A stretch of DNA of 39,003 nucleotides from a virus (Duplodnaviria > Heunggongvirae > Uroviricota > Caudoviricetes): IMG/VR virus record IMGVR_UViG_2563366825_000018; one strand, written 5' to 3'. Both the position numbers and the translations under genes were made by a program. Below the pieces are notes generated by a model. That model made no database searches. It worked only from the letters and a program-made list of their open reading frames with translations, and had not been told where the DNA came from. This document shows positions 1,136 to 38,069 of the stretch, one piece after another; position 1 is the stretch's first letter, and every line of letters starts with the position of its first letter.

Positions 1136-2812
1136 CTAAGCAACATGTAGTTCATCGTTGGCGGAAGTGGCTGCTTTGCGCTCCTGCTCAATAGCTAGAG
1201 ACTCTCTATATTCTTTCGCCTCTGCAAACATTGTCCAGTGGGCGTTGATGTTCATGTCTTCAATAACTGATTTGATTTCTTTTAAATTTACGTTAAAAAA
1301 CTCTTTTCGTGAGCTAATTTTATTGACCTGCTTTTCGTTGAAAACTTTATGCAGATGGTTTTCTAATGATGGTGCATCATCACTATAAATCATCGCATGA
1401 ACATCGAACGAAAAAGGAACACTAGCATCTCCGAGTTCACGAACACGATCAAGTGGTTCAAGGCGGCGTGTCATTCCAATTTTATATACATCTTCGCCAA
1501 ATGAACCAATATTACTAATGATATAGACGTGGCCTGATCTGGTTTGTTGAGCCATAGAAATAGCTCGTTGATTTTTAGCTTCAGCTTCTTCATATTTTAA
1601 CTGTAGTTCAGCTATTTTTTGCTCTAAAGCTAAGCGTTGTTCTTCATTTGCAAGCATAAGTTCTTTCGTTGCTTTATTTATAGCTTGCTGAATAGCTTTT
1701 TCTTCTTTTTCAGCTTCTTTTATCGCTTTTTCATATTCTCTACGAGCTCTTTCCTCTTCACGAAGCTGTTCTTTAATCCTTCTTTGCTCTTCTTTTTCTT
1801 CGAGCATAATTTCATTAACTGCTACACCCCATTTTAGCTCGTTGAGTCTTGCCTGAAGATAGATGTCACTTATTTTTGCGGACCTAAAGGCAGAGCCATT
1901 GTAATTTACTAGTTGAAATGCATCTTTTATTTCTTGGGAAAGTTTTCCAAAATTGTTGTGTTTGACTTTTGATAAAATACTGTCAACTCTTCCATTGAAG
2001 GCATCCAAAACAAAGTTTATGGCAGTATTACGCCTGTTTTGCTCAACATAATCACACGAAGCAGCTTTATTAGTTTTTATTAATGATTTGGTTAACTCTC
2101 TGGCTTTTTGTAATTCCTTGCCTGCATCTGTAAATTCATAATTTTCTGCCAGTTCATCAAGTACACTACGGTTAGGGATGATCCATTCATCACCATAACC
2201 TTCAATTTTATTTTTCATTGATTTTGCAACTGCTTCATATTTTTCTGCAAACTCTTTAGCTTCATATGCTGAACCAGCAATCTCCTTTGCTCTTTCTTCT
2301 GCATCAGAAATAATTTTTACTGCATTGTCATTAGCATTTGAGATTAGCTCATTTGCTTTATTATTAGCATTATCAAGACGTTCTTTGGCTTTCAGGCGTG
2401 CATCGCGAGCGTCTTTGGTGATTGCTATAGCTTCGCTATTAGCGTTGCTTATTGTCATCTGAGCTTGATAATTTGCTTCGTTTACTGTTTTAGCCGCCTT
2501 AATTTGGGCTTCATCTATTTTTTGCTTGGCTATTGAGTCCGCATTTTTTATCTTATTCTCTGCATCCATTACTGCGCTGTGCAATTCTTCGTATTGCCAC
2601 AATGGTGCTGCTCGCCCTTCAAGCTCTGATAATTCTCGTACGGTCTGTGCTAGTTTTTCTTGATTTTCAATCAGTTGGTTAGAAAGGGCTATGTTGTTAG
2701 CTGTCAGGTTATCTATAGCCGCTTTGTGTTTTTTACTTTGTTTAAATAATATTACAGCTAGAACAGGGGCGAGAAATGCTAATAAGAGTATAACGATGGC
2801 AAATGAATTCAT
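1136..2812 (-). CDS. membrane-anchored coiled-coil protein with DUF4041-like region and C-terminal T5orf172 (GIY-YIG-like) domain; accessory gene
   Basis: 558 aa; N-terminal TM helix, about 150 aa of Ala/Lys/Glu-rich coiled coil, C-terminal GHVYIISNIGSFGEDVYKIGMTRRLEPLDRVRELG motif; AGGA-type RBS 7 nt before the ATG; sits 20 nt downstream of cI on the same strand; AT-rich. Confidence 0.75.
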   Translation of the reverse strand: MNSFAIVILLLAFLAPVLAVILFKQSKKHKAAIDNLTANNIALSNQLIENQEKLAQTVRELSELEGRAAPLWQYEELHSAVMDAENKIKNADSIAKQKIDEAQIKAAKTVNEANYQAQMTISNANSEAIAITKDARDARLKAKERLDNANNKANELISNANDNAVKIISDAEERAKEIAGSAYEAKEFAEKYEAVAKSMKNKIEGYGDEWIIPNRSVLDELAENYEFTDAGKELQKARELTKSLIKTNKAASCDYVEQNRRNTAINFVLDAFNGRVDSILSKVKHNNFGKLSQEIKDAFQLVNYNGSAFRSAKISDIYLQARLNELKWGVAVNEIMLEEKEEQRRIKEQLREEERARREYEKAIKEAEKEEKAIQQAINKATKELMLANEEQRLALEQKIAELQLKYEEAEAKNQRAISMAQQTRSGHVYIISNIGSFGEDVYKIGMTRRLEPLDRVRELGDASVPFSFDVHAMIYSDDAPSLENHLHKVFNEKQVNKISSRKEFFNVNLKEIKSVIEDMNINAHWTMFAEAKEYRESLAIEQERKAATSANDELHVA

Positions 2813-2832: not shown

Positions 2833-3429
2833 TTAATTCGAGACTATTGTACTTCTTATACAAGCAACCACTTCAATATCAGAAAATGCACATTCAAAGC
2901 TATTCTCTGCTGTTGTAATTTTAATCATTCCTTTAGGAAGCCTTGTGATTTTTCGAATGGAATAGGTTCCGTCGATATTGATTAACCAGTTTCCATCAAG
3001 TACTTCAGAAAATTTTTGATCACAAATGTATGTGACGAGTCCATCCTGAACAACAATTGGTGATGAAAGGTTTGCAGGAAGAAATGATGAATCGAAGACA
3101 TATGAACCGTCTTCAATCATTTTGCCTGCGGCAAGGCGAAACTTAACAAGCTCTTCTGTAGCTGCTGTCAGCGAGCTTTGCTTAAGGCCTTGTCCGGTAG
3201 TTAACCATTTGAGGGAGGTTCCTGTTTCAAGAGCACATTGGATTATCCAGTCAGCAGGAAATGTATCCCGCAAATACCTGTTCGCTAGTGTGCTTTTTGA
3301 TACTTCCAAGTGATCAGCTAAAGCCTGTCGTGTCGTAAAGCCATAGGCTTCGACTAATCGCTCAATCGCAGCCTTACCACCTTTATTGGGATTTATTTTG
3401 ATCTCACTTGGGTACTTTGATGTTGACAT
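2833..3429 (-). CDS. cI: immunity repressor CI, phage 186 type
   Basis: 198 aa; ERLVEAYGFTTRQALADHLEVSKSTLANRYLRD...CALETGTSLKWLTTGQG matches my recollection of 186 CI (HTH N-domain plus C-domain). Confidence 0.88.
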   Translation of the reverse strand: MSTSKYPSEIKINPNKGGKAAIERLVEAYGFTTRQALADHLEVSKSTLANRYLRDTFPADWIIQCALETGTSLKWLTTGQGLKQSSLTAATEELVKFRLAAGKMIEDGSYVFDSSFLPANLSSPIVVQDGLVTYICDQKFSEVLDGNWLINIDGTYSIRKITRLPKGMIKITTAENSFECAFSDIEVVACIRSTIVSN

Positions 3430-9686: not shown

Positions 9687-10346
9687 TTATGATTTCATTT
9701 TTTCGAATTTATTTTTTTGCAAAACAATATCTGTAGCTTCAATGGATTTTTTAAGTGAATCTAAAAGACGTTGACGTCTCTTAATTTTAGAGAAAGAAAC
9801 CCTCATAGCAGCCTCTTGTTTGGGCTTGATGTCCACCAGTACATAATATGGTTTTCTGGCTCCGCGCTTAATGTTGTTACGCTTAAAACCTTTTCCTCTA
9901 ATCGAAGCATTGGAATCAGCGATTTGTACAGGTAAAAACTCAAAACCACGTGTCGTCACTTTTGAACGAAATCTTTTAAATATTCTTGGTTCATGCTGTG
10001 CTCTCTTTGGTGTAGTCGAAAATAAAAAATGTTTCACGACAGTGGATTTTATCTCAGGATATTTTTCGAGATATTTTGAATTCAAGAGTGAGATGAATTT
10101 TTCAACTGGACTTATGTCAAGGTAAGAGCCGAACTTACTCTCAAAATACTTATCAAAGCTTTGGTTTTTATTATCATTAACAAACTTTGAAATATCAATT
10201 AGAAGTTCTTTCACGCCATTCTGACCAACTTCAGAAAGATATAAATCAATAATCTTTCCAAGATCATCTGAATCAAGTTCGCATGCGGTATCTTGATTGA
10301 AGTAGGACCGTATGAAATTATCTAGTTTAGTATATTCTTTTGACAT
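9687..10346 (-). CDS. hypothetical protein, acidic N-domain and very basic C-terminal half; second gene of two-gene cargo operon
   Basis: 219 aa; AT-rich; start 3 nt after upstream gene stop; C-terminal KRNNIKRGARKPYY, KIKRRQR stretches suggest nucleic acid binding. Confidence 0.7.
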   Translation of the reverse strand: MSKEYTKLDNFIRSYFNQDTACELDSDDLGKIIDLYLSEVGQNGVKELLIDISKFVNDNKNQSFDKYFESKFGSYLDISPVEKFISLLNSKYLEKYPEIKSTVVKHFLFSTTPKRAQHEPRIFKRFRSKVTTRGFEFLPVQIADSNASIRGKGFKRNNIKRGARKPYYVLVDIKPKQEAAMRVSFSKIKRRQRLLDSLKKSIEATDIVLQKNKFEKMKS

Positions 10347-10349
10347 ATA

Positions 10350-10814
10350 TCACCCCTTAACAGGATATGCAGTGAGGATGAAATGAGGCATTCCGTTAAA
10401 ATTTCCAACTTTCATAACTAAATTAATTCTTTTTGCAGTTAATATATTGTTTGGATCATCACGTTCAACGTAAGTGCCTACATCCTGTTCAATGTCTAAT
10501 TCCCTTGAAAATCTAACATCTGCGCGATTGGGATCTTTATACCACTCTGTAAATTCCATAAGAAATGAATTGAACCACTCGGTAGCTGATAGTTCTGCAA
10601 CTGATAAGTTTGTAAATGTTGAAGATACACGGAGTTTAGGAAATCGACCTATCAGGTAATTGGCATCCTTGCCAACATGTCTTCTAATTGTGTGTCCACC
10701 AGGTCCAGAATCCGAAGCTGCTTCATGAACTTTCAATTTGACGGGAGAGTATCCTGAGGAGTTTACTGTTGTCGATGTTGTAGCATGCTGTAGTTGTGAT
10801 GTAGAAGAAAACAT
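10350..10814 (-). CDS. hypothetical protein with GHTIRRHVGK motif; first gene of two-gene cargo operon
   Basis: Start ATG with GGAGGG RBS (internal to track ORF 10350-10865); 154 aa; no family confidently recognised. Confidence 0.65.
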   Translation of the reverse strand: MFSSTSQLQHATTSTTVNSSGYSPVKLKVHEAASDSGPGGHTIRRHVGKDANYLIGRFPKLRVSSTFTNLSVAELSATEWFNSFLMEFTEWYKDPNRADVRFSRELDIEQDVGTYVERDDPNNILTAKRINLVMKVGNFNGMPHFILTAYPVKG

Positions 10815-11073
10815 GTTCACCCTCCATGTTTTAGAATTGAGGTACAGTATATCGACGCTGCACATAACTTGTTTAAATATTTAGCCCTATGGTACACAAC
10901 CATATTGCTTTTTATGCTGTAACTTCTGCTCTTCGTCCACAGCGGATTTTTATCGTTGTAAACCAGTATGTTTCGTTTTTCAAGCAGTTATCCGATAGGG
11001 ATTTTCACTTCCCTTGGCAGCGCATGACTATGCTGCATGAATCCGCATGATCGTTTGAGGATCGTTTTTGCTG

Positions 11074-11215: not shown

Positions 11216-13162
<1,947 letters not shown>

Positions 13163-21949: not shown

Positions 21950-22876
21950 TCAAAACAATCTCAATAAATTATGATCAATCGTAAGCAAGTTGGAGATAAC
22001 AAGTTTGCTATTATCAATATTGAATTTTTCTAATATTGCTGCTACAGCACTGGGGTAAGGTTGTGAAGCATATGGAGAAATGTATATTTTTTCGATTAGC
22101 TTTACAGGATCTGTTTTTATTCTTATCCCCTTGGGAGTATAGTTTTCGATGTCGCTATTAATAATTTTTGGTGTTATGGATAAACGTACTTCATTTTCAT
22201 GTGAAAAAGCTTTTCGTTTTAAAAAAGGAACCATTCTTCCGTTCACGACGCAATCTTCAGATGTTAGTTTTTCATCGAAATAATCAATGTATTTTACTTC
22301 ACTAATAGAGATAATCTCTTCAGATTGAAGTGAATCTATCAAGCGTGATATTGATGTTTGAATTGCTATTCCTTTGTTAGCATCTGAATACAAACGCCAC
22401 ATTCCTTCTGACTCATGTTCATTTTGATGCCAACAATTCACTGTGACGGAGTTTAAAATCTTAAAATAGATAGATTCTATTTTTGGTAATTGTGTATCCA
22501 TCATTGTTTGCAACTTGGTGATTTCTGTTTCGGCTTTTTCATTAGAGATTCTGCCTAATAGTTCGTTTTCCCTGATACGCTCTACGGTATCATTGAAATA
22601 TGATTGTATATCATTAAATTTACTTTTGACGATGCTTGCCCATGCATTTAAGGCAACCTTAGGTAATAACCCCTCATATGGATCGCTATTGCTGTAAGAA
22701 CTAAGCGGAGAAAAATATAGCTCTTCTCTGGATAATATATCGATGAATTTATCAAGAGACATATAGCGCCACAGTTTTGTTTCAGGTTTTAAATTTGGAC
22801 TAATTTGGAATTTATTCATTGTTTTTTTATCAGCATTGTATAGTGAGTGATACAAACCGCAATATTTATACTTCAT
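21950..22876 (-). CDS. DUF2971-family protein, accessory gene inserted antisense between S and V
   Basis: LWRYMSLDKFIDILSREELYFSP, CWHQNEHESEGMWRLYSDANKGIAIQ and KRKAFSHENEVRL fit DUF2971 signatures; AT-rich; start at ATG 22876 with GGGGTG RBS (alternative ATG at 22819). Confidence 0.75.
   Translation of the reverse strand: MKYKYCGLYHSLYNADKKTMNKFQISPNLKPETKLWRYMSLDKFIDILSREELYFSPLSSYSNSDPYEGLLPKVALNAWASIVKSKFNDIQSYFNDTVERIRENELLGRISNEKAETEITKLQTMMDTQLPKIESIYFKILNSVTVNCWHQNEHESEGMWRLYSDANKGIAIQTSISRLIDSLQSEEIISISEVKYIDYFDEKLTSEDCVVNGRMVPFLKRKAFSHENEVRLSITPKIINSDIENYTPKGIRIKTDPVKLIEKIYISPYASQPYPSAVAAILEKFNIDNSKLVISNLLTIDHNLLRLF
22837..22854. promoter_or_regulatory. late promoter dyad TGT-N12-ACA upstream of V
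   Basis: TGTatagtgagtgatACA; overlaps the 5' end of the antisense DUF2971 ORF if that ORF starts at 22876. Confidence 0.5.
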
Positions 22877-22901
22877 AATCACCCCATGTCAATCTATAGG
22901 C

Positions 22902-23836: not shown

Positions 23837-24731
23837 CCTTTCGCAGTTGCCTGCGCCGCAGATTGTCGATGTGCCGGACTTTGAGACGCTGCTTGCCGAA
23901 CGCAAGGCCGAATTTGTTGCGCTTCATCCGAAAGATGAGCAGGAAGCCGTGATCCGCACGCTGGAACTGGAATCTGAACCCGTCACCAAATTGCTGCAGG
24001 AGAACGCTTACCGTGAGTTGCTTCTGCGCCAGCGCATTAACGAAGCCGCGCAGGCTGTGATGGTGGCTTACGCGATGGGCGGCGATCTTGACCAGCTCGC
24101 TGCCAACTACAACGTGAAACGCCTGACGGTGACGCCTGCTGATAATGACGCTGTGCCACCCGTTGCGGCCGTGATGGAAAGCGATGAAGCGTTACGCCTG
24201 CGTGTGCCCGCAGCCTTTGAAGGGCTTTCTGTTGCGGGGCCAACTGCCGCTTATGAATTTCATGCCCGAAGCGCCGACGGTCGGGTGGCGGATGCCAGTG
24301 CAACCAGTCCGGCACCTGCAGAGGTGGTACTGACTGTCCTGAGTCGTGAAGGCGACGGAACAGCAGAAAAAGACTTGCTGGATGTGGTGGAGAAAGCCCT
24401 GAACAGTGAGAACGTCCGCCCGGTGGCTGACCGTCTGACGGTTCGCAGCGCAGAAATCATCCCGTACCGTGTGGAAGCTACCATTTTTCTTTATCCGGGA
24501 CCGGAAGCAGAGCCGGTAATGGCAGCGGCAAAAGTCAGCCTGCAGAGGTACATCGCCAGTCAGACGCGGCTCGGTCGGGATATTCGCCGTAGTGCTATTT
24601 TTGCCGCGCTGCATGTTGAGGGTGTTCAACGTGTGGAGCTGGCTTCTCCTCTGGCGGATGTGGTCCTGAACAAAACACAGGCCGCATCATGTACGCAGTG
24701 GAGCGTAACCAACGGAGGAACGGATGAATAG
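23823..24731 (+). CDS. J: baseplate assembly protein J
   Basis: Internal ATG of track ORF 23784-24731 with GGAGCAGAGA RBS region; overlaps W end. Confidence 0.88.
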   Translation: MAVIDLSQLPAPQIVDVPDFETLLAERKAEFVALHPKDEQEAVIRTLELESEPVTKLLQENAYRELLLRQRINEAAQAVMVAYAMGGDLDQLAANYNVKRLTVTPADNDAVPPVAAVMESDEALRLRVPAAFEGLSVAGPTAAYEFHARSADGRVADASATSPAPAEVVLTVLSREGDGTAEKDLLDVVEKALNSENVRPVADRLTVRSAEIIPYRVEATIFLYPGPEAEPVMAAAKVSLQRYIASQTRLGRDIRRSAIFAALHVEGVQRVELASPLADVVLNKTQAASCTQWSVTNGGTDE

Positions 24732-25329
24732 TCTGCTGCCACCGGGTTCAACTTCACTGGAGCGCCGGCTGGCGCAGACCTGTAGCGGGATTTCTGATCT
24801 GCAGGTGCCGCTGCGTGACTTGTGGAATCCGGCAACCTGTCCGGTCAGTTTCCTGCCTTATCTCGCCTGGGCGTTCTCTGTGGATCGCTGGGATGAGGGC
24901 TGGACAGAAAGCGTCAAGCGCCAGGTGGTGAAGGATGCTTTTTATATTCATCAGCATAAAGGGACCACCAGTGCCGTGCGGCGGGTGGTGGAGCCGTTCG
25001 GCTTTCTGATCCGCATTATTGAGTGGTGGCAGACCGGAGAGACACCGGGCACGTTTCGTCTGGATATCGGCGTGCAGGACCAGGGCATCACTGAAGATAC
25101 CTATCTGGAACTTGAGCGACTGATAAGCGATGCCAAACCATGTAGCCGTCACATGATCGGCATGTCCATCAACCTGCAGACCAGCGGCCCGCATTGGGTG
25201 GGAGTCGCCAGCTATCTTGGCGAAGAAATCACGATCTATCCGTATATCAACGAAACAATTATTTCTGGCGGCACCGCGCATGAAGGCGGGGCGGTCCATG
25301 TTATTGACACAATGAGAGTGAATCCATGA
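24724..25329 (+). CDS. I: baseplate protein I
   Basis: 201 aa at the P2 I position. Confidence 0.85.
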   Translation: MNSLLPPGSTSLERRLAQTCSGISDLQVPLRDLWNPATCPVSFLPYLAWAFSVDRWDEGWTESVKRQVVKDAFYIHQHKGTTSAVRRVVEPFGFLIRIIEWWQTGETPGTFRLDIGVQDQGITEDTYLELERLISDAKPCSRHMIGMSINLQTSGPHWVGVASYLGEEITIYPYINETIISGGTAHEGGAVHVIDTMRVNP

Positions 25330-26735
25330 GCACAAAATTTTATACCCTGCTGACGGATATTGGCGCGGCGAAACTTGCCAGCGCCGCCGCGCTCGGTGTG
25401 CCTTTAAAAATTACCCATATGGCGGTCGGCGATGGCGGCGGAACATTGCCAACGCCGGACGCAAAGCAGACAGCATTAGTAAATGAGAAACGCCGGGCTG
25501 CGCTGAATATGCTTTATATCGACCCGCAGAACAGCAGCCAGATTATTGCTGAACAGGTGATCCCTGAAAACGAGGGCGGTTGGTGGATACGTGAAGTGGG
25601 CCTGTTTGATGAGTCCGGGGCATTGATTGCCGTGGGCAACTGCCCGGAAAGCTATAAGCCGCAACTGGCTGAAGGCAGCGGGCGCACCCAGACCGTGCGC
25701 ATGGTGCTGATTACCAGCAGTACGGACAATATCACCCTGAAAATCGACCCTGCTGTAGTGCTGGCAACCCGTAAATACGTGGATGATGAAGTCCTGGAAT
25801 TAAAGCTGTATGTGGATGACCAGATGAGAAACCACATTGCCGCACAAGATCCTCATACCCAGTATGCGCAGAAACATAATCCGACATTTACCGGAGAACC
25901 AAAAGCGCCGACGCCTGCAGCAGGAAATAACACCACGCGGATTGCGACCACTGAGTTTGTTCAGGCCGCTATTACTGCTCTGATTAACGGTGCGCCAGCC
26001 ACGCTGGACACACTGAAAGAAATTGCCGCAGCCATTAACAATGACCCGAAATTCAGTACCACCATTAACAATGCGCTGGCACTAAAAGCGCCGCTGTCGA
26101 GTCCGGCACTCACCGGAACGCCAACAGCACCTACTGCGGCGCAGTCGGTCAACAATACACAGATTGCCACTACGGCTTTTGTGAAATCGGCGATTGCAGG
26201 AATGGTGGGTTCTGCACCTGCGGCACTGGATACACTGAACGAACTGGCGGCGGCACTGGGGAATGATCCGAACTTTGCCACGACAATGCTTAATGCGCTG
26301 GCAGGTAAACAACCGCTGGACAATACGCTTACCAATTTGAGCGGAAAGGATGTATCTGGTCTTCTCACATACCTTGGTTTGGGAGAAGCGGCGAAAAGGG
26401 ATGTGGGTACAGGAGAAAATCAGATACCGGATATGTCAGCCTGGAAAAGAAATCCGAGTTCTAATCGCTGGAGAAAATTGCCTGATGGAACCATCATTCA
26501 AATGGGAATATCAGCATCAGGACCATTAGGCTCACCTGTAAATATCACCCTGCCGATATCTTTCAGCAATACCAATTATTGTGTTGTTGCATCGTACGAT
26601 AATGCACGGTCAGGTGTGTCAACAATGGTTAGTTTTGCAGCATTGCCTGTTTCACCATCGCAATTTTCCCTGATGTCATCTGTGACTGAGCAAGGAATAA
26701 ATCCTTTTGCTTACTGGATTGCTTTTGGAGATTGA
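25326..26735 (+). CDS. H: tail fibre protein H; C-terminal part lies inside the invertible segment
   Basis: 469 aa; conserved N-terminus MSTKFYTLLTDIGAAKLA; two tandem ~55-aa fibre repeats; crossover site within the coding sequence. Confidence 0.9.
   Translation: MSTKFYTLLTDIGAAKLASAAALGVPLKITHMAVGDGGGTLPTPDAKQTALVNEKRRAALNMLYIDPQNSSQIIAEQVIPENEGGWWIREVGLFDESGALIAVGNCPESYKPQLAEGSGRTQTVRMVLITSSTDNITLKIDPAVVLATRKYVDDEVLELKLYVDDQMRNHIAAQDPHTQYAQKHNPTFTGEPKAPTPAAGNNTTRIATTEFVQAAITALINGAPATLDTLKEIAAAINNDPKFSTTINNALALKAPLSSPALTGTPTAPTAAQSVNNTQIATTAFVKSAIAGMVGSAPAALDTLNELAAALGNDPNFATTMLNALAGKQPLDNTLTNLSGKDVSGLLTYLGLGEAAKRDVGTGENQIPDMSAWKRNPSSNRWRKLPDGTIIQMGISASGPLGSPVNITLPISFSNTNYCVVASYDNARSGVSTMVSFAALPVSPSQFSLMSSVTEQGINPFAYWIAFGD
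26362..26387. repeat. left inversion crossover site (gix/pix-like) inside H
   Basis: ttctcacataccttggtttgggagaa; 14-bp exact inverted match (ttggtttgggagaa) with the site at 28212-28237. Confidence 0.7.
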
Positions 26736-26738
26736 TAA

Positions 26739-27158
26739 ATGGACAGATACTTCTATTCACAAAAAGAAAATGGTTTTTTTACCGATTTAAATAAAGCACC
26801 TTCAGATGCTGTTGAGATAACCACGGATGAATGGCTGTTACTACTGGATGGTCAGGATAATGGCATGAAAATAGTCAGCAATCAGGAGGGATATCCGGTT
26901 TTGACAGAGCAACCACCTTTATCAAAAGAAAACCTTATTGCATTGGTGGAGTTGAAAAAAAGAAAACTTATTAATGAAGCCAACGAGCACATGAACAGCA
27001 GACAATGGCCAGGTAAAGCGGCTATTGGTCGTCTGAAAGGTGAGGAACTGGCGCAATATAATTTATGGCTGGATTATCTGGACGCACTGGAACTGGTTGA
27101 TCCCTCCAGTGCTCCAGATATTGAATGGCCTACGCCTCCGGCAGTTCAGGCCAGATGA
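26739..27158 (+). CDS. G: tail fibre assembly protein (gpG/Tfa), cassette in expressed orientation
   Basis: 139 aa; C-terminal WPTPP motif. Confidence 0.88.
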   Translation: MDRYFYSQKENGFFTDLNKAPSDAVEITTDEWLLLLDGQDNGMKIVSNQEGYPVLTEQPPLSKENLIALVELKKRKLINEANEHMNSRQWPGKAAIGRLKGEELAQYNLWLDYLDALELVDPSSAPDIEWPTPPAVQAR

Positions 27159-27732
27159 CATCCGGTGCGGTGCTGGTATCTGTTGCCGTCACCGCGTCAA
27201 TGTAATCCAGCGCAGCGTTAAGTCGGGCGGTTTCTGCCTGCGTCAGATTTCGTCCGGCCTGTAATTTCAGTTGAATCAGACTGATAGAAGCCATTGCTGT
27301 ATCAATCAGCGACTGGCGCTGTGCTTCTGCTGCATCTACTACGGCGCTATGCTGTGCCTCGGTATCCGTCACCCATTTCTCACCATCCCATTTATCGTAT
27401 GGCGTTAACGGGGCGATAGTGGTTGTATTATCAGGGTAATCACCCGGTGCTGTGATTTCTTTTGATTCTCCTGTTTCGGTGCTAAAGACAATTTCACCGC
27501 GATGGTCTGGTACATATTCCCATGAGTTAAAATCTGCAGAGCGGCAGATTGCATAACCAGCTTTGTAGGTGCCTGGAGCATCTAAACAGGAATATGCCGG
27601 AATGCCGACACCAACAGCAAGATATTCAGTTGAAGCTGAAATATACTCCCGACTCATGACGTCAAAGTTATAAACAGTAATTTCTCCTGCCATAGTGGCA
27701 ATTAATTCACTGTTTAATTCTGCGTTATTCAT
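27130..27732 (-). CDS. alternative tail fibre assembly protein (silent orientation)
   Basis: 200 aa; C-terminus ...DTSTAPDVIWPELP matches Tfa end motif; convergent with G. Confidence 0.8.
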   Translation of the reverse strand: MNNAELNSELIATMAGEITVYNFDVMSREYISASTEYLAVGVGIPAYSCLDAPGTYKAGYAICRSADFNSWEYVPDHRGEIVFSTETGESKEITAPGDYPDNTTTIAPLTPYDKWDGEKWVTDTEAQHSAVVDAAEAQRQSLIDTAMASISLIQLKLQAGRNLTQAETARLNAALDYIDAVTATDTSTAPDVIWPELPEA

Positions 27733-28237
27733 TATGCAGCCCTCACAATATAGTTAAAAGCGACATTTCGTGGGCGTGTTTCATTCGCACCTGCAGGTTT
27801 AGTCGTTGCCGCAACAACACCACCCTCTGTAATAGCCGGGTTAGGAATTGGGTAATTATCGAAGTCAATGGCCGGAGACAGGGGCGTGATTTGTTTTAAA
27901 ATCGTGGTGCCTGTAAAACTTTCCAGAGTCTGGTCGTTAGTTCGTGAAGTCCAGATTCCCCAATAGTGGTTATGACTGACAATCGCACCGTCCTGAAGCG
28001 TTAATAATCCCCTTCCGTTATCCACTCCACGTCCGTCATCCCAGCCACGAATAAACTCACCGCGTAAATCAGGCAATTTATTTGTCGGGTAAGCCTTTGC
28101 CAGTTCCGGGTATTCTTCAGCAGAAAAAGCCGCACCATTGCATTTCAGCCAGCCTGTCGGCGGAGTGGCGGAAGGCCACGGAACAGGCACACCAACAGGT
28201 AATGCAGAGCCTTCTCCCAAACCAACGTTTAAGAAAA
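27732..28237 (-). CDS. alternative tail fibre C-terminal cassette (promoterless; fuses to H constant region after inversion)
   Basis: Track ORF 27732-28265; residues IFLNVGLGEG are encoded by the crossover site and match LTYLGLGE in H. Confidence 0.75.
28212..28237. repeat. right inversion crossover site (gix/pix-like)
   Basis: ttctcccaaaccaacgtttaagaaaa, about 55 nt upstream of the invertase start; inverted relative to 26362-26387. Confidence 0.7.
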
Positions 28238-28292
28238 TGCAGCGATTACGACTAACTGGCATCATCCCCGGTTTTTATTCAGGGGATTGATC

Positions 28293-28859
28293 ATGCTTAT
28301 TGGCTATGTACGCGTGTCAACAAATGACCAGAACACCGATTTGCAACGTAATGCACTGAACTGCGCGGGATGTGAGCGGATTTTTGAGGACAAAATCAGT
28401 GGCACTAAGTCCGACAGACCGGGGCTTAAAAAACTGCTCAGGACACTATCGGCAGGTGACACACTGGTTGTCTGGAAGCTGGACAGGTTGGGGCGCAGTA
28501 TGCGGCATCTCGTTACGCTGATAGAAGATCTGCGCCAGCGTGGCGTGAATTTCCGAAGCCTGACTGACAGTATTGATACCAGTACCCCAATGGGCCGTTT
28601 CTTTTTTCATGTCATGGGGGCCCTGGCTGAAATGGAACGCGAACTGATAGTTGAACGTACCAGGGCAGGGCTGGCTGCAGCTCGCGCCAAAGGCAGAGTA
28701 GGTGGACGCCGTCCTAAGTTGACTACCGAACAGTGGGCACAGATTGGACGTTTACTCGAGGCCGGAGAATCAAGACAGCGTATTGCACTGATTTTTGATG
28801 TGGGCGTTTCTACCATTTATAGAAAATTTCCGGCGAATGAGAACAATGAATCGCCCTGA
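28293..28859 (+). CDS. pin: serine DNA invertase (Pin/Gin/Hin/Cin family)
   Basis: MLIGYVRVSTNDQNTDLQRNAL...DTLVVWKLDRLGRSM...PMGRFFFHVMGALAEMERELI is near-identical to my recollection of e14 Pin; catalytic Ser in YVRVST. Confidence 0.93.
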   Translation: MLIGYVRVSTNDQNTDLQRNALNCAGCERIFEDKISGTKSDRPGLKKLLRTLSAGDTLVVWKLDRLGRSMRHLVTLIEDLRQRGVNFRSLTDSIDTSTPMGRFFFHVMGALAEMERELIVERTRAGLAAARAKGRVGGRRPKLTTEQWAQIGRLLEAGESRQRIALIFDVGVSTIYRKFPANENNESP

Positions 28860-28907
28860 GTCAGCATTATTTTGATTTTTCCTGTAAGCGGACAAATACC
28901 GTTATTT

Positions 28908-28925
28908 TGTGTGAATAACGACACA
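28908..28925. promoter_or_regulatory. late promoter dyad TGT-N12-ACA upstream of FI
   Basis: TGTgtgaataacgacACA, about 77 nt upstream of the FI ATG. Confidence 0.6.
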
Positions 28926-29001
28926 ACTGCGCTTAGCTGTTTGTCAGGCACAATCACTTCAACATAGGGCGAAGCCTAATCCAATCAGGAGGTTCGCCAC
29001 T

Positions 29002-30174
29002 ATGGCTCAGGATTACCACCACGGAGTGCGCGTTGTTGAAGTCAACGAAGGCACCCGATCCATTACCACGGTGAGCACCGCCATCGTGGGTATGGTCTGC
29101 ACGGGCGATGATGCCGATGCAAAAATGTTTCCTCTTAATAAACCCGTGCTGATCACTGATGTGCTGACTGCCAGCGGTAAAGCGGGTGAGTCCGGTACGC
29201 TGGCCCGTTCGCTGGACGCCATCGCTGACCAGGCAAAACCCGTGACCGTTGTTGTGCGTGTGCCGCAGGGTGAAACGGAAGAAGAAACCACGACCAATAT
29301 CATCGGAGCAGTGACCGCTGAAGGTAAAAAAACAGGCATGAAAGCCCTGTTATCTGCCCAGTCACAGCTCGGCGTTAAACCGCGCATTCTCGGCGTGCCA
29401 GGTCACGATAACAAAGCCGTTGCTACTGAGTTGCTGAGTGTGGCGCAAAGCCTGCGTGGGTTTGCTTACCTGTCAGCGTATGGCTGCAAGACGGTGCAGG
29501 AGGCGATCACTTACCGTGAAAACTTCAGCCAGCGCGAAGGAATGCTGATCTGGCCCGACTTTACTGGCTGGGACACGGTGCTGAATGCCGAAGCAACGGC
29601 ATATGCCACCGCCCGTGCGCTTGGTCTGCGCGCAAAAATTGACGAGCAGACCGGATGGCACAAAAGCCTGTCCAATGTGGGCGTTAACGGTGTCACCGGA
29701 ATTTCTGCTGATGTGTTCTGGGATCTGCAGGACACGGCAACCGATGCTGGACTGCTGAACCAGAACGACGTCACCACCCTTATCCGCAAAGACGGTTTCC
29801 GCTTCTGGGGTTCCCGCTGCCTGAGTGATGACCCGCTCTTTGCCTTCGAAAACTACACCCGCACGGCGCAGGTGCTGATGGACACGATGGCAGAAGCACA
29901 CATGTGGGCGGTGGATAAACCGCTTAACCCGTCGCTGGCCCGGGACATTATCGAAGGTATCCGCGCCAAAATGCGCAGCCTGGTCAGTCAGGGCTATCTC
30001 ATTGGTGGCGATTGCTGGCTGGATGAGTCGGTGAACGACAAAGACACTCTGAAAGCCGGAAAACTCACCATCGATTACGACTACACGCCAGTGCCACCAC
30101 TTGAAAACCTGATGCTGCGTCAGCGCATCACCGATCAGTACCTGGTGAATTTCGCCAGCCAGGTCAGCGCGTAA
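29002..30174 (+). CDS. FI: tail sheath protein FI
   Basis: 390 aa; P2 FI-like. Confidence 0.92.
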
Positions 30175-30183
30175 GGGGACAAC

Positions 30184-30699
30184 ATGGCTTTACCACGTAA
30201 ATTAAAACACCTGAACCTGTTTAACGACGGGAATAACTGGCAGGGGATCGTTGAGTCGCTGACGCTGCCGAAATTCACCCGCAAATATGAGAAGTATCGC
30301 GGCGGCGGAATGCCGGGTGCAGTGGATGTGGATCTGGGGCTTGATGACAGTGCGCTGGACACAGAATTTTCCATTGGTGGTACTGAACTGCTGCTGTTTA
30401 AACAGATGGGCAAAGCCACGGTGGATGGCATCCAGTTGCGCTTTACCGGCTCTATCCAGCGTGATGATACCGGGGAAGTGCAGGCCGTGGAGCTTGTGGT
30501 GCGTGGACGTCACAAAGAAGTGGATTCCGGCGAGTGGAAGACGGGCGAAAGCAACACCACCAAAGTGACCAGTACCAACAGCTACGCGAAGCTGACTATC
30601 AATGGTGAGGTGCTCTATGAAGTGGACCTTATCAACATGGTGGAAATTGTGGACGGTGTGGACTTGATGGAAGCGCACCGCAACGCCCTCGGCCTCTGA
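30184..30699 (+). CDS. FII: tail tube protein FII
   Basis: 171 aa; P2 FII-like. Confidence 0.92.
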   Translation: MALPRKLKHLNLFNDGNNWQGIVESLTLPKFTRKYEKYRGGGMPGAVDVDLGLDDSALDTEFSIGGTELLLFKQMGKATVDGIQLRFTGSIQRDDTGEVQAVELVVRGRHKEVDSGEWKTGESNTTKVTSTNSYAKLTINGEVLYEVDLINMVEIVDGVDLMEAHRNALGL

Positions 30700-30753
30700 T
30701 GTATCTGAACGGCGCGGAATGCCGCGCCAGAACCCAATTTACAGGACAGCAAA

Positions 30754-31056
30754 ATGAGCGATAAGCAGACTGAAAAGACCATTCTACTGGATACCCCCAT
30801 CATGCGTGGTAAAACAGAAATTACCGAAATTGTGCTGCGTAAACCGCAGTCCGGTGCGCTGCGCGGTACACGCCTGCAGGCCATTATGGATATGGATGTG
30901 AACGCGATGATGACCGTGATCCCCCGCATCTCCAGCCCGGCGCTGACTGCACAGGAAATTGCAGAGATGGACCCGGCAGATCTCACTGCCATGTCGGTTG
31001 AGGTTGTCACTTTTTTGTTGAAGAAGTCGGTGCTTGCCGGTTTACCGACAGCCTGA
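30754..31056 (+). CDS. E: tail assembly chaperone E
   Basis: 100 aa at the P2 E position; contains slippery TTTTTTG near its 3' end. Confidence 0.85.
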   Translation: MSDKQTEKTILLDTPIMRGKTEITEIVLRKPQSGALRGTRLQAIMDMDVNAMMTVIPRISSPALTAQEIAEMDPADLTAMSVEVVTFLLKKSVLAGLPTA

Positions 31057-36224: not shown

Positions 36225-36271
36225 CAACAAAAAACCCATCAACCTTGAACCGAAATGGCGGGGTTGATGGG
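36225..36271 (-). terminator. rho-independent terminator downstream of ybjL
   Basis: 10-bp stem cccatcaacc/ggttgatggg with T-run on the minus strand (plus strand caacaaaaaa). Confidence 0.55.
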
Positions 36272-36383
36272 CTCCACAAAATGGGGACATCAAAGAAAAG
36301 CAGTGGCACTAATTAAGACTGATGCCCTGCGGAAAAGTTCTGCGGTTGTGCAAAAAAATTTCATTTTCAGGGCAACTTCAGTT

Positions 36384-38069
36384 TTATCCTAATCCTGGCC
36401 ATACCATGACGATGATTGTCCCTGCCAGCGTCAGCAGGACGTTGGCGATTGCATAGGTGCCCGCATAGCCCAGCGCCGGGATGTTACTGCGAGCTGTATC
36501 ACTGATGATCTCCATTGCCGGCGCGCAGGTACGTGCGCCCATCATTGCGCCGAACAACAGCGCGCGGTTCATTCGCAATACATAAGCACCGAACAAGAAA
36601 CAGATAACCACGGGCACCAGACTGACAATCAATCCGGCAATCAACATCTGACCGCCAATCGCGCCCAGGCCGTTATTAATACCGCTACCGGCGCTCAGAC
36701 CAACGCCTGCCATAAACACCATCAAGCCGAACTCTTTCACCATGCTTAATGCACCCTGCGGAATGTAACCGAAGGTCGGGTGGTTAGCACGCATAAAGCC
36801 CAGCATAATTCCGGCGAATAACAACCCGGCAGCGTTCCCCATGCCGAAACTGAATGTGCTGAACTGGAAGGTGATCATCCCGATCATCAGCCCAATAACA
36901 AAGAAGGCGCAGAATGCCAGCAGGTCAGTGACCTGGCTGTGAATCGAGATAAAGCCGATGCGATCGGCGATGGTTTTTACGCGGCGGGCATCGCCGCTGA
37001 CTTGTAAAACGTCACCTTTGTTAAGCACGACGTTGTCATCTATCGGCATCTCAATCTGGCTACGAATGACGCGGTTAAGGAAGCAACCGTGATCGGTCAA
37101 CTTCAGTTGTGCGAGACGTTTACCTACAGCGTTATGGTTTTTAACGACCACTTCTTCAGTGACGATACGCATGTCGAGAAGGTCACGATCGAAAACTTCT
37201 TTACCGTTACGGAAGCTGGGATCGAGTCGGGCATGGGCGTCGGGATAGCCTACCAACGCTATTTCATCGCCCATTTGTAGCACGGCATCACCGTCTGGAT
37301 TTGCCAGAATCCCGTTACGTCGAATACGTTCAATGTAGCAGCCGGTTTGTCGATAAATACCCAGTTCACGCAGATTTTTGCCGTCGGTCCAGGCCACCAG
37401 TTCCGGGCCGACGCGATAGGCGCGGATCACCGGTAAATAAACCTTACGGTTGGCATCAGTGTCCAGGCCACGTTCGCGGGCGATTTGCTGGGCGCTGGTC
37501 TGTAAGTCCTGATGCTGCAATTTCGGCAAGTAACGCGCACCAACAATCAAACTCACCAGACCGATTAAATAGGTTAAGGCATACCCGAGGCTCAGATTAT
37601 CCAGTGCCAGTGAGAGCTGCCTGCTTTCCATGCCGGAATGACGCAGTGTATCGCCAGCACCGACCAGAACCGGTGTCGACGTCATAGAGCCTGCTAACAT
37701 ACCGGCCGTCAGGCCAATATCCCAGCCAAACAGCTTACCTAACCCTAAGGCGATCACCAGCGCACTGCCAACCATCACCAGTGCTAACATTAGGTAATTT
37801 TTCCCATCGCGAAAAAAAATGGAAAAAAAGTTCGGTCCGGCTTCGACCCCGACGCAGAAAATAAACAGCATAAAGCCAAGATTAAGCGCATCGGTGTTAA
37901 TGCTGAAATGTTGTTGGCCTAATAACAGCGATACGACTAAAACGCCAATGGAATTACCCAGTTGGATCGAACCAAGTCGTAACTTTCCGAGACATAGCCC
38001 AAGCGCGAGGACCACAAATAATAACAGAATGTAATTCCCATTTAACAATTCGGCGACGTTTATATTCAC
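36384..38069 (-). CDS. ybjL: putative AAE-family transporter YbjL (host chromosome)
   Basis: 561-aa polytopic membrane protein; N-terminus [33 protein letters not shown] recognised as E. coli YbjL. Confidence 0.85.

What the first reader, a model, noticed from the sequence alone, without database searches (positions are those of the whole stretch)
26362..28859. Invertible tail-fibre host-range switch with Pin-like invertase on a P2/186-type tail module
Two 26-bp gix/pix-like sites in inverted orientation flank a ~1.85-kb segment. One site lies inside H at the LGLGE codons and the other inside the antisense alternative cassette at IFLNVGLGEG, so inversion would swap the H C-terminus and its assembly chaperone, as in Mu G, P1 C and e14 P. 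A serine invertase near-identical to Pin lies just downstream. This occupies the G-to-FI slot where P2 has Z/fun.
Basis: partly seen in the sequence, partly recalled or inferred. Interest (0 to 1): 0.55.

Follow-up and report, generated by a model that had tools for sequence, protein, structure and literature searches.

The report
Invertible tail-fibre switch in P2-like prophage
This is an ordinary, well-known kind of phage DNA switch: a Pin/Gin-type invertase flips a 1.85-kb segment so that the prophage's tail-fibre gene gets one of two alternative tips with its matching assembly chaperone. The same element is found in both orientations in public E. coli genomes.

Summary

- **Sites.** Two 26-bp sites (26362-26387 and 28212-28237) lie in inverted orientation. 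Each carries an exact pix half-site plus core, TTCTCCCAAACC-AA. The right site matches e14 pixR at 25 of 26 positions.
- **Segment.** The sites bound a 1,850-bp segment with two convergent cassettes. One is a gp53-like fibre tip plus a 139-aa chaperone. The other is a collar-domain tip plus a 200-aa TfaE-like chaperone.
- **Frame.** In-silico inversion fuses the constant part of H in frame to the second tip, giving a 513-aa protein.
- **Invertase.** The invertase (28293-28859) is intact. It is 85% identical to PinE, 79% to Cin and 75% to Gin, so "near-identical to Pin" is overstated. It keeps the catalytic Ser9 and the Fis/enhancer-contact residues.
- **Evidence of flipping.** Strain 13TMH22 has sites identical to the window's. 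Its two copies of the element differ by an exact inversion with no mismatch. Two assemblies of ATCC 8739, whose invertase is 99% identical, differ the same way. Among complete E. coli genomes, 17 hold the window orientation and 33 the flipped one.
- **Prior knowledge.** Inversion in P2-like prophages is already published.

A change of host range is inferred, not tested. Interest is low.

The parts
25326..26374 (+). Constant part of tail-fibre gene H (Sc), up to the crossover point
   Evidence: Pfam PF12571 (Phage_tail_fib N-terminal) matches residues 1-150, E 2.7e-65. This part lies outside the invertible segment and is unchanged by the in-silico inversion.
26362..26387 (.). Left 26-bp crossover site (pix-like), TTCTCACATACC TT GGTTTGGGAGAA, inside H
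   Evidence: Its reverse complement matches pixL at 22/26 positions, with the half-site and AA core identical. The same 26-mer bounds the inversion in strain 13TMH22.
26375..28224 (.). Invertible segment, 1,850 bp between the two crossover dinucleotides
   Evidence: The homologous segments differ by exact inversion between two ATCC 8739 assemblies and between the two 13TMH22 copies.
26375..26735 (+). Variable tip now joined to H (Sv), gp53-like C-terminal domain
   Evidence: Pfam PF21882 (Gp53-like_C) matches H residues 384-468, E 3.5e-12.
26739..27158 (+). Tail-fibre assembly chaperone for the current tip (139 aa, TfaP/U-like)
   Evidence: Pfam PF02413 (Caudo_TAP), E 8e-25. PHROG 188, tail fiber assembly. 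54% identical to e14 TfaP (68/126).
27130..27732 (-). Alternative chaperone (200 aa, TfaE-like), antisense in this orientation
   Evidence: Pfam PF02413, E 9e-33. 87% identical to e14 TfaE (174/200). Its 3' end overlaps that of the other chaperone gene by 29 bp, as tfaP and tfaE do in e14.
27732..28224 (-). Alternative silent fibre tip (Sv'), collar domain. It has no N-terminal part of its own, although the ORF runs on to 28265.
   Evidence: Pfam PF07484 (Collar), E 9e-16. It matches only the C-terminal parts of tail-fibre PHROG profiles, e.g. positions 468-638 of 673. 64% identical to e14 StfE. It fuses in frame to H after in-silico inversion.
28212..28237 (.). Right 26-bp crossover site (pixR-like), TTCTCCCAAACC AA CGTTTAAGAAAA
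   Evidence: Matches pixR at 25/26 positions. A public contig of the same element ends exactly at its central AA, window 28225.
28293..28859 (+). Din-family DNA invertase (188 aa)
   Evidence: Pfam Resolvase plus HTH_7. Full-length match to Gin, PDB 3UJ3, E 4e-92. 85% identical to PinE, 79% to Cin and 75% to Gin. S9, R7, R42, D64, R65, R68, K46, K47, R50, Q150, R153 and L154 are all present.
28311..28382 (.). Probable Fis-dependent recombinational enhancer inside the 5' end of the invertase gene (inferred)
   Evidence: It corresponds to nt 19-90 of cin, which the P1 record annotates as the enhancer. Identity is 56/72 to cin, 63/72 to pinE and 72/72 to the ATCC 8739 element. Two 15-mers of the form G-N13-C lie at 28314-28328 and 28363-28377.
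28909..28926 (+). TGT-N12-ACA element upstream of FI, of the P2 late-promoter activator-site type. It marks the start of the next operon.
   Evidence: Read from the sequence. P2 has an annotated pF activator site at the same relative place. That this motif is the P2 late-promoter consensus is from my own knowledge.
29002..30174 (+). Tail sheath gene FI, the right-hand neighbour of the switch
   Evidence: Pfam Phage_sheath_1 and Phage_sheath_1C. 69% identical to P2 FI.

Best explanation
This is a Din-family (Hin/Gin/Cin/Pin-type) site-specific inversion switch in the tail-fibre region of a P2-like prophage.

Proposed mechanism:
1. The 188-aa serine invertase binds the two 26-bp pix-like sites as dimers.
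2. With host Fis bound to an enhancer in the 5' end of its own gene, it forms a synaptic tetramer.
3. It cuts both sites at the central dinucleotide, rotates one half of the complex by 180 degrees, and religates.

This flips the 1,850-bp segment. In the orientation seen in the window, H (469 aa) ends in a gp53-like tip and is followed by a 139-aa chaperone. After inversion, the same H N-terminus (residues 1-350) is fused in frame to a collar-domain tip (513 aa in all) and is followed by the 200-aa TfaE-like chaperone. A lysogen population would therefore release two kinds of virions with different receptor-binding tips.

Shown here: the sites, the frames, the intact enzyme, and real inversions of the same element in public genomes. 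Inferred: dependence on Fis and the enhancer, activity in this particular strain, and a difference in host range.
For: - **Sites.** Two exact copies of the pix half-site plus core lie in inverted orientation, with none elsewhere in the window. They match pixR at 25/26 and pixL at 22/26 positions.
- **Frame.** The inverted form gives an in-frame 513-aa fusion with the alternative chaperone directly downstream.
- **Cassettes.** Each has a fibre-tip domain and a Caudo_TAP chaperone. The silent tip matches only the C-terminal parts of fibre profiles.
- **Invertase.** It aligns end to end with Gin. It keeps the catalytic Ser9. It also keeps the residues that PMC3798978 reports as specific to Fis/enhancer-dependent invertases: Hin K47, R48, K51, Q151, R154 and L155, which correspond to K46, K47, R50, Q150, R153 and L154 here.
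- **Enhancer region.** The enhancer-equivalent stretch is conserved.
- **Exact inversions.** NC_010468 and CP033020, both E. coli ATCC 8739, differ only by an exact inversion of the homologous segment, with 0 mismatches. That invertase is 186/188 identical to the window's and its enhancer stretch is 72/72 identical. In strain 13TMH22 the chromosomal copy and the 36-kb circular copy differ by an exact inversion, with 0 mismatches and 26-bp sites identical to the window's.
- **Population counts.** Among 5,426 complete E. coli genomes, 17 hold the region in the window orientation and 33 in the in-silico flipped form, each at 80% coverage or more.
- **Contig break.** A draft contig of the same element ends at the central AA of the right site.
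- **Literature.** Inversion in P2-like prophages of EPEC E2348/69 and in e14 was shown by sequencing and PCR (PMC4272514). The e14 crossover repeat TTGGTTTGGGAGAAGG (PMC12529663) matches the window's right site exactly (reverse complement of 28210-28225) and the left site at 15 of 16 positions (26374-26389).
Against: - There are no reads from the window's own strain, so flipping there is not shown.
- No sigma-70-like promoter for the invertase was found in the 55 bp upstream by the simple scan, so its expression is unknown.
- Conservation of the enhancer stretch is confounded by the conserved protein it also encodes.
- The outer half of the left site differs from pixL at 4 positions.
- The receptors of the two tips are unknown, so a host-range difference is only an analogy with Mu and P1.
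Confidence: 0.9

Rival explanations
1. The switch is a locked relic in this strain. All the parts are present, but the invertase is not expressed or the slightly divergent left site is a poor substrate. The prophage would then make only the gp53-like tip.
For: No promoter-like site lies directly upstream of the invertase. The outer half of the left site differs from pixL at 4 positions. There are no read data for this strain.
Against: The same 26-bp sites are found recombined in 13TMH22. A 99% identical invertase with an identical enhancer stretch goes with an exact inversion in ATCC 8739. All ORFs of the silent cassette are intact. Both orientations are common among genomes.
Confidence: 0.05
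2. The inversion mainly serves the host rather than phage host range. Flipping would change which fibre-tip and chaperone proteins the lysogen makes, and these would block adsorption of other phages, as reported for the e14 P segment (StfE2 against T2).
For: PMC12529663 reports this for the homologous e14 segment. The window's collar tip is 64% identical to StfE and its chaperone is 87% identical to TfaE. The prophage also carries several defence-type genes.
Against: Unlike e14, this prophage looks complete, with a full P2-type tail, head and lysis gene set. H also has a full-length N-terminal baseplate-attachment domain. In P2-type phages H is a late gene, silent in the lysogen (my own knowledge). 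No test was made here. This reading could be true in addition to the main one.
Confidence: 0.05
3. The inverted repeat is only a by-product of two homologous fibre-gene fragments sharing a conserved GLGE motif. The orientation differences between genomes would then come from homologous recombination or misassembly, not from the invertase.
For: The exact shared stretch is short (15 nt). It encodes a conserved peptide found in many fibre genes.
Against: A 15-nt repeat is far too short for efficient RecA recombination (my own knowledge). The repeat matches the Din-family site well beyond the coding motif, including the non-coding outer half of the right site, which matches pixR at 25/26. A dedicated intact invertase sits 55 bp away. 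The inversions are exact at these sites in independent strains. PinE-dependent inversion at this sequence is published (PMC12529663).
Confidence: 0.01

Closest known systems
P segment and PinE of the defective prophage e14 (E. coli K-12)
   Same: The layout is the same: fibre gene, chaperone, antisense chaperone, antisense fibre tip, invertase. The crossover half-site and core are the same, and the right site matches pixR at 25/26. TfaE is 87% identical, the invertase 85%, and the N-terminal part of StfE is nearly identical. The two chaperone genes overlap by 29 bp at their 3' ends in both. The segments are about 1.8 kb (1,797 bp in e14 per PMC12529663; 1,850 bp here).
   Different: e14 is a lambdoid remnant with a truncated fibre gene (stfP, 209 aa) and a pseudogene stfE. 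Here the switch sits in an apparently complete P2-type tail operon with a full-length H. The first cassette (gp53-like tip, 139-aa chaperone) is only distantly related to StfP and TfaP (38% and 54%).
Invertible fibre segments of P2-like prophages (EPEC E2348/69 prophages; ATCC 8739 and 13TMH22 prophages; phages pro483, Cartapus, 500465-1, KP12; Fels-2 with Fin)
   Same: The position is the same, between H and FI, with an annotated DNA invertase. The region is 93-98.5% identical in DNA in many E. coli genomes. Inversion in P2-like prophages was shown experimentally (PMC4272514). The KP12 invertase is 97.9% identical.
   Different: The pair of tips varies from phage to phage. Only about 50 of 5,426 complete E. 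coli genomes carry this exact pair at 80% coverage or more. One EPEC prophage has three sites (a small shufflon), whereas this one has two. The link of Fels-2 Fin to a fibre segment is cited from papers and was not examined here.
G segment and Gin of phage Mu; C segment and Cin of phage P1
   Same: The logic is the same: a constant fibre N-terminus outside the segment, two alternative C-termini each with its own chaperone, 26-bp sites, an adjacent invertase, and an enhancer in the 5' end of the invertase gene. The invertase is 75-79% identical.
   Different: The segments are larger (3 kb and 4.2 kb). The core dinucleotide is GA in gix. The fibre tips and chaperones are unrelated or only distantly related (24-31% identity for the chaperones). 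The phage families are different.
Phage P2 itself
   Same: Tail gene order is V-W-J-I-H-G ... FI-FII-E-T. FI is 69% identical. There is a late-promoter-type activator site upstream of FI.
   Different: P2 has a single H tip and chaperone G. It carries fun(Z) between G and FI, where this phage has the second cassette and the invertase.

Membership tests
Din-family (Hin/Gin/Cin/Pin) DNA inversion systems | Small serine recombinase with an N-terminal catalytic domain, a nucleophilic Ser at position 9 or 10, and a C-terminal HTH DNA-binding domain | tested here: met
   Pfam Resolvase plus HTH_7. Aligns over residues 1-183 with Gin, PDB 3UJ3/4M6F, E 4e-92. S9, R7, R42, D64, R65 and R68 are present.
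Din-family (Hin/Gin/Cin/Pin) DNA inversion systems | Two 26-bp imperfectly palindromic crossover sites in inverted orientation with matching central dinucleotides | tested here: met
   Sites at 26362-26387 (core TT on the + strand) and 28212-28237 (core AA on the + strand). They match pixR at 25/26 and pixL at 22/26 positions.
Din-family (Hin/Gin/Cin/Pin) DNA inversion systems | Invertase residues that contact Fis and the enhancer (Hin K47, R48, K51, Q151, R154, L155), conserved in invertases but not in resolvases | tested here: met
   K46, K47, R50, Q150, R153 and L154 are present at the equivalent positions. The criterion is from PMC3798978.
Din-family (Hin/Gin/Cin/Pin) DNA inversion systems | Cis-acting enhancer of about 65 bp with two Fis sites, usually in the 5' end of the invertase gene and about 100 bp from one site | tested here: inconclusive
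   The stretch 28311-28382 corresponds to the annotated cin enhancer and is 56/72 identical to it. It begins about 86 bp from the right crossover point. Two G-N13-C 15-mers lie 49 bp apart. Conservation is confounded by the coding sequence, and Fis binding cannot be tested here.
Din-family (Hin/Gin/Cin/Pin) DNA inversion systems | The segment is actually found in both orientations | tested here: met
   Exact inversions between the two 13TMH22 copies, whose sites are identical to the window's, and between two ATCC 8739 assemblies. 17 genomes hold the window orientation against 33 in the flipped form. This was not tested in the window's own strain.
Invertible tail-fibre host-range switches (Mu G, P1 C, e14 P type) | A constant fibre N-terminus outside the segment, and two alternative in-frame C-termini inside it, each followed by its own assembly chaperone | tested here: met
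   H is 469 aa in the window orientation and 513 aa in the flipped form. Both chaperones are Caudo_TAP proteins.
Invertible tail-fibre host-range switches (Mu G, P1 C, e14 P type) | The two orientations give virions with different receptor or host specificity | not testable with these tools
   The tips have different folds (gp53-like_C and Collar), which fits different receptors. No adsorption or plating data exist.
P2-like phages (Peduoviridae) tail module | Gene order V-W-J-I-H-G ... FI-FII-E-T with P2-family domains | tested here: met
   Pfam Tail_P2_I, Phage_base_V, GPW_gp25, Baseplate_J, P2_GpR, Phage_tail_S, Phage_P2_GpE, sheath and tube. FI is 69% and FII 52% identical to P2. The first 25 kb of the window is 96-97% identical to P2-like phages vB_EcoM-813R9 and KP12.

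The most novel reading that the evidence does not exclude
In the lysogen, the flip might do more than diversify virions. As proposed for e14 StfE2 and PinQ, one orientation might express a fibre tip or chaperone that blocks adsorption or tail assembly of competing phages. The invertase might also act in trans on the fibre segments of other prophages in the same genome. The switch would then be a phase-variable defence element in a prophage that already carries several defence genes.
Probability: 0.08. Interest if true: 0.4.

Novelty: already known. Interest (0 to 1): 0.12.

Why it matters
It matters little beyond correct annotation.

- **Annotation.** The silent collar-domain ORF and the second chaperone gene are parts of one switchable tail-fibre gene, not separate genes. 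The "recombinase family protein" is a Pin-type invertase, not an integrase or resolvase.
- **Assembly and typing.** The element can appear in either orientation and can break draft assemblies at the 26-bp site.
- **Phage biology.** It adds one more pair of interchangeable receptor-binding tips to the known mosaic repertoire of P2-like phages.

Tried and rejected
- **Third site.** I looked for a third crossover site that would make a shufflon, using the pix half-site with up to 2 mismatches and a degenerate Din pattern. There are only two sites.
- **Invertase promoter.** A promoter scan of 26300-29100 gave no more hits than shuffled sequence and none just upstream of the invertase. Its expression is left open.
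- **NCBIfam.** It has no specific model for this invertase or for the fibre proteins. All hits were far below the cut-offs.
- **Fels-2/Fin paper.** PMC1347348 is not held, so the Fels-2 parallel rests on citations in other papers.
- **Site-finding scripts.** My own regular expressions for sites returned nothing because the patterns were too strict. They were replaced by exact string searches.
- **Chance or homologous recombination.** I considered and rejected chance, or homologous recombination between fibre fragments, as the origin of the repeat (see the rival explanations).
- **Large searches not run.** I did not use the large protein or structure searches. Fold and family were already clear from Pfam, PHROGs and PDB sequence matches.
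Full report
**1. The observation**

The region 24000-31000 contains an inverted repeat with arms at 26362-26388 and 28211-28237. It is 27 nt long, 81% complementary, has 1822 nt between the arms, and is the top-listed pair in the region.

Read as 26-bp sites, the left one is TTCTCACATACC-TT-GGTTTGGGAGAA at 26362-26387. The right one is TTCTCCCAAACC-AA-CGTTTAAGAAAA at 28212-28237. The 14-mer TTCTCCCAAACCAA occurs exactly twice in the 39-kb window, at these two places and on opposite strands. Only 0.27 matches are expected by chance even with two mismatches allowed. A degenerate Din-type pattern finds the same two places and no third.

The left site lies in the 469-aa ORF 25326-26735 at codons LLTYLGLGE. 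The right site lies in the antisense ORF 27732-28265 at IFLNVGLGEG, in the same codon phase. The crossover points are 1,850 bp apart.

**2. The genes**

- **H (25326-26735, + strand).** It has the P2-type fibre N-terminal domain (PF12571, E 2.7e-65) and a gp53-like C-terminal domain (PF21882).
- **Chaperone (26739-27158, + strand).** A 139-aa Caudo_TAP protein.
- **Alternative chaperone (27130-27732, - strand).** A 200-aa Caudo_TAP protein, 87% identical to e14 TfaE.
- **Alternative tip (27732-28265, - strand).** A 177-aa collar-domain ORF. It matches only the C-terminal parts of tail-fibre PHROG profiles. It is therefore a tip without an N-terminus of its own.
- **Recombinase (28293-28859, + strand).** A 188-aa serine recombinase with Resolvase and HTH_7 domains.

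On the left are P2-type genes V, W, J and I. On the right are FI, FII, E and T. FI is 69% identical to P2 FI. The first 25 kb of the window is 96-97% identical to the P2-like phages vB_EcoM-813R9 and KP12.

In P2 itself the interval between G and FI holds fun(Z) and the pF activator site. A TGT-N12-ACA element at 28909-28926 sits where P2 has that activator site.

**3. What inversion would do**

I inverted 26375-28224 in silico. The constant part of H (residues 1-350) then reads in frame into the collar tip, giving a 513-aa protein. The TfaE-like chaperone gene starts at the stop codon of that protein. The 26-bp sites are not changed by the flip, because their inner halves are exact inverted copies.

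**4. The sites and the enzyme compared with the known family**

The table of Din-family sites in PMC3241671 gives pixL as TTCTCCCAAACC-AA-GGTTTTCGAGAG and pixR as TTCTCCCAAACC-AA-CGTTTATGAAAA. The window's right site matches pixR at 25/26 positions. The reverse complement of the left site matches pixL at 22/26 and cixR at 21/26. The half-site and the AA core are identical in both. The e14 crossover repeat reported in PMC12529663, TTGGTTTGGGAGAAGG, matches the window's right site exactly (reverse complement of 28210-28225) and the left site at 15 of 16 positions (26374-26389).

The invertase aligns over its whole length with Gin (PDB 3UJ3 and 4M6F, E 4e-92). Its identity to relatives is:

| Relative | Identity |
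|---|---|
| PinE | 85% (156/183) |
| Cin | 79% |
| Gin | 75% |
| Annotated DNA invertase of Klebsiella phage KP12 | 97.9% |

"Near-identical to Pin" is therefore too strong.

The catalytic residues S9, R7, R42, D64, R65 and R68 are all present. So are the residues that PMC3798978 reports as conserved only in Fis/enhancer-dependent invertases. Those are Hin K47, R48, K51, Q151, R154 and L155, which correspond here to K46, K47, R50, Q150, R153 and L154.

The P1 record annotates nt 19-90 of cin as the inversion enhancer. The equivalent stretch here, 28311-28382, is 56/72 identical to cin and 63/72 to pinE. It contains two G-N13-C 15-mers, at 28314-28328 and 28363-28377. This fits a Fis enhancer about 90 bp from the right site. 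The stretch also encodes a conserved protein segment, so I rate this feature inconclusive.

**5. Does the segment really flip?**

I could not examine reads, so I compared public assemblies.

(a) *E. coli ATCC 8739.* In NC_010468 the homologous prophage has the window's orientation. In CP033020, another assembly of the same strain, the segment is reversed. The two loci differ by an exact inversion of 1,831 nt between the homologous sites. There are no mismatches in the segment or in the flanks. That invertase is 186/188 identical to the window's, and its enhancer stretch is 72/72 identical.

(b) *Strain 13TMH22.* A 36-kb circular record, which looks like a free phage genome, has the window orientation. 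The chromosomal copy is flipped. The difference is again an exact inversion with no mismatches. The 26-bp sites are identical to the window's.

(c) *Counts among 5,426 complete E. coli genomes.*

| Query | Genomes at ≥80% coverage | Best identity |
|---|---|---|
| 3.5-kb region as in the window | 17 | 96.9% |
| 3.5-kb region, in-silico flipped | 33 | 98.5% |
| Predicted H-constant/collar-tip junction alone | 375 | – |
| Junction as in the window | 9 | – |

(d) *A contig break.* The window is identical to scaffold KE136665.1 of GCA_000407805.1. A second assembly (GCA_958320165.1) has the same element with 2 mismatches, on a contig that ends at window position 28225. That is the central AA of the right site. 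A break at that exact point is what mixed orientations in the sequenced culture would produce. This is circumstantial.

*Published work.* PMC4272514 showed coexisting orientations in e14 and in two P2-like prophages of EPEC E2348/69 by sequencing; the e14 case was also confirmed by PCR in the passages read. One of those prophages has two sites, as here. PMC12529663 showed PinE- and PinQ-dependent inversion of the e14 segment.

**6. Mechanism and rivals**

The best explanation (confidence 0.9) is an active Din-type switch that alternates the C-terminal tip of H together with its chaperone. The host-range effect is inferred from Mu and P1 and from the different folds of the two tips.

- **A relic locked in this strain** is unlikely (0.05), because all parts are intact and the identical sites recombine elsewhere.
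- **A host-serving anti-phage role**, as proposed for e14, cannot be excluded (0.05). It could be true in addition to the main reading.
- **Chance or homologous recombination** is in effect excluded (0.01).

**7. Novelty**

The kind of system, its enzyme and site family, and its occurrence in P2-like prophages are all published. Near-identical elements are annotated in many public genomes and phage records. I rate it already known, with low interest. The only particular feature is the specific pair of tips. That pair is carried at 80% coverage or more by about 50 of the complete E. coli genomes.

Noticed in passing
window 11222-13162 (+): A 646-aa reverse transcriptase matches the PADLOC retron-type model RT-Toprim I-C (E 6e-217; Pfam RVT_1). 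It lies between the replication genes and the portal gene. No Rfam family for a retron RNA matched upstream.
   Followed up: partly
window 9687-10865 (-): A possible toxin-immunity pair in the same cargo region. A 171-aa protein carries a bacterial CdiA-CT RNase A domain (PF18431, E 1.5e-16). It is followed by a 219-aa protein with a CdiI_2 immunity domain (PF18593).
   Followed up: partly
window 1136-2812 (-): A 558-aa protein matches the PADLOC model PD-Lambda-1 (E 6e-119; T5orf172/MUG113 and DUF4041 domains). It lies between the integrase (1-1053) and the CI-type repressor (2833-3429).
   Followed up: partly
window 21950-22882 (-): A 310-aa antisense ORF with DUF2971 (Pfam E 4e-7) matches the PADLOC candidate PDC-S31 (E 3e-24). 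It is inserted between tail genes S and V. The ATCC 8739 relative has a different gene there, a P-loop ATPase of the Sll1717 family, so this looks like a variable cargo slot.
   Followed up: partly
window 36226-38069 (-): RybB small RNA (Rfam RF00110, 105 bits) at 36226-36304 and a YbjL/YidE-type transporter gene at 36384-38069. This is host chromosome, so the right end of the prophage lies just before rybB.
   Followed up: no
L010 (GCA_958320165.1 contig CATSXY010000011.1), end of contig = window 28225: A draft contig carrying the same element (2 mismatches over 8.9 kb) ends exactly at the central AA of the right crossover site. This is as expected if both orientations were present in the sequenced culture.
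   Followed up: partly
window 27130-27158, and 27068-27085 / 27194-27211: The two convergent chaperone genes overlap by 29 bp at their 3' ends, as tfaP and tfaE do in e14. An 18-nt inverted repeat lies just inside the 3' ends of both genes, in their C-terminal regions (LDYLDAL in one). It is probably not a recombination site.
   Followed up: no
NZ_CP019257.1 (L005) and NZ_CP019256.1 (L004), strain 13TMH22: The record labelled plasmid p13TMH22-1 (36,172 bp, circular) carries P2-like phage genes over the region examined. It duplicates a chromosomal prophage that abuts an IS1203 element. It is probably a free or excised phage genome rather than a plasmid.
   Followed up: partly
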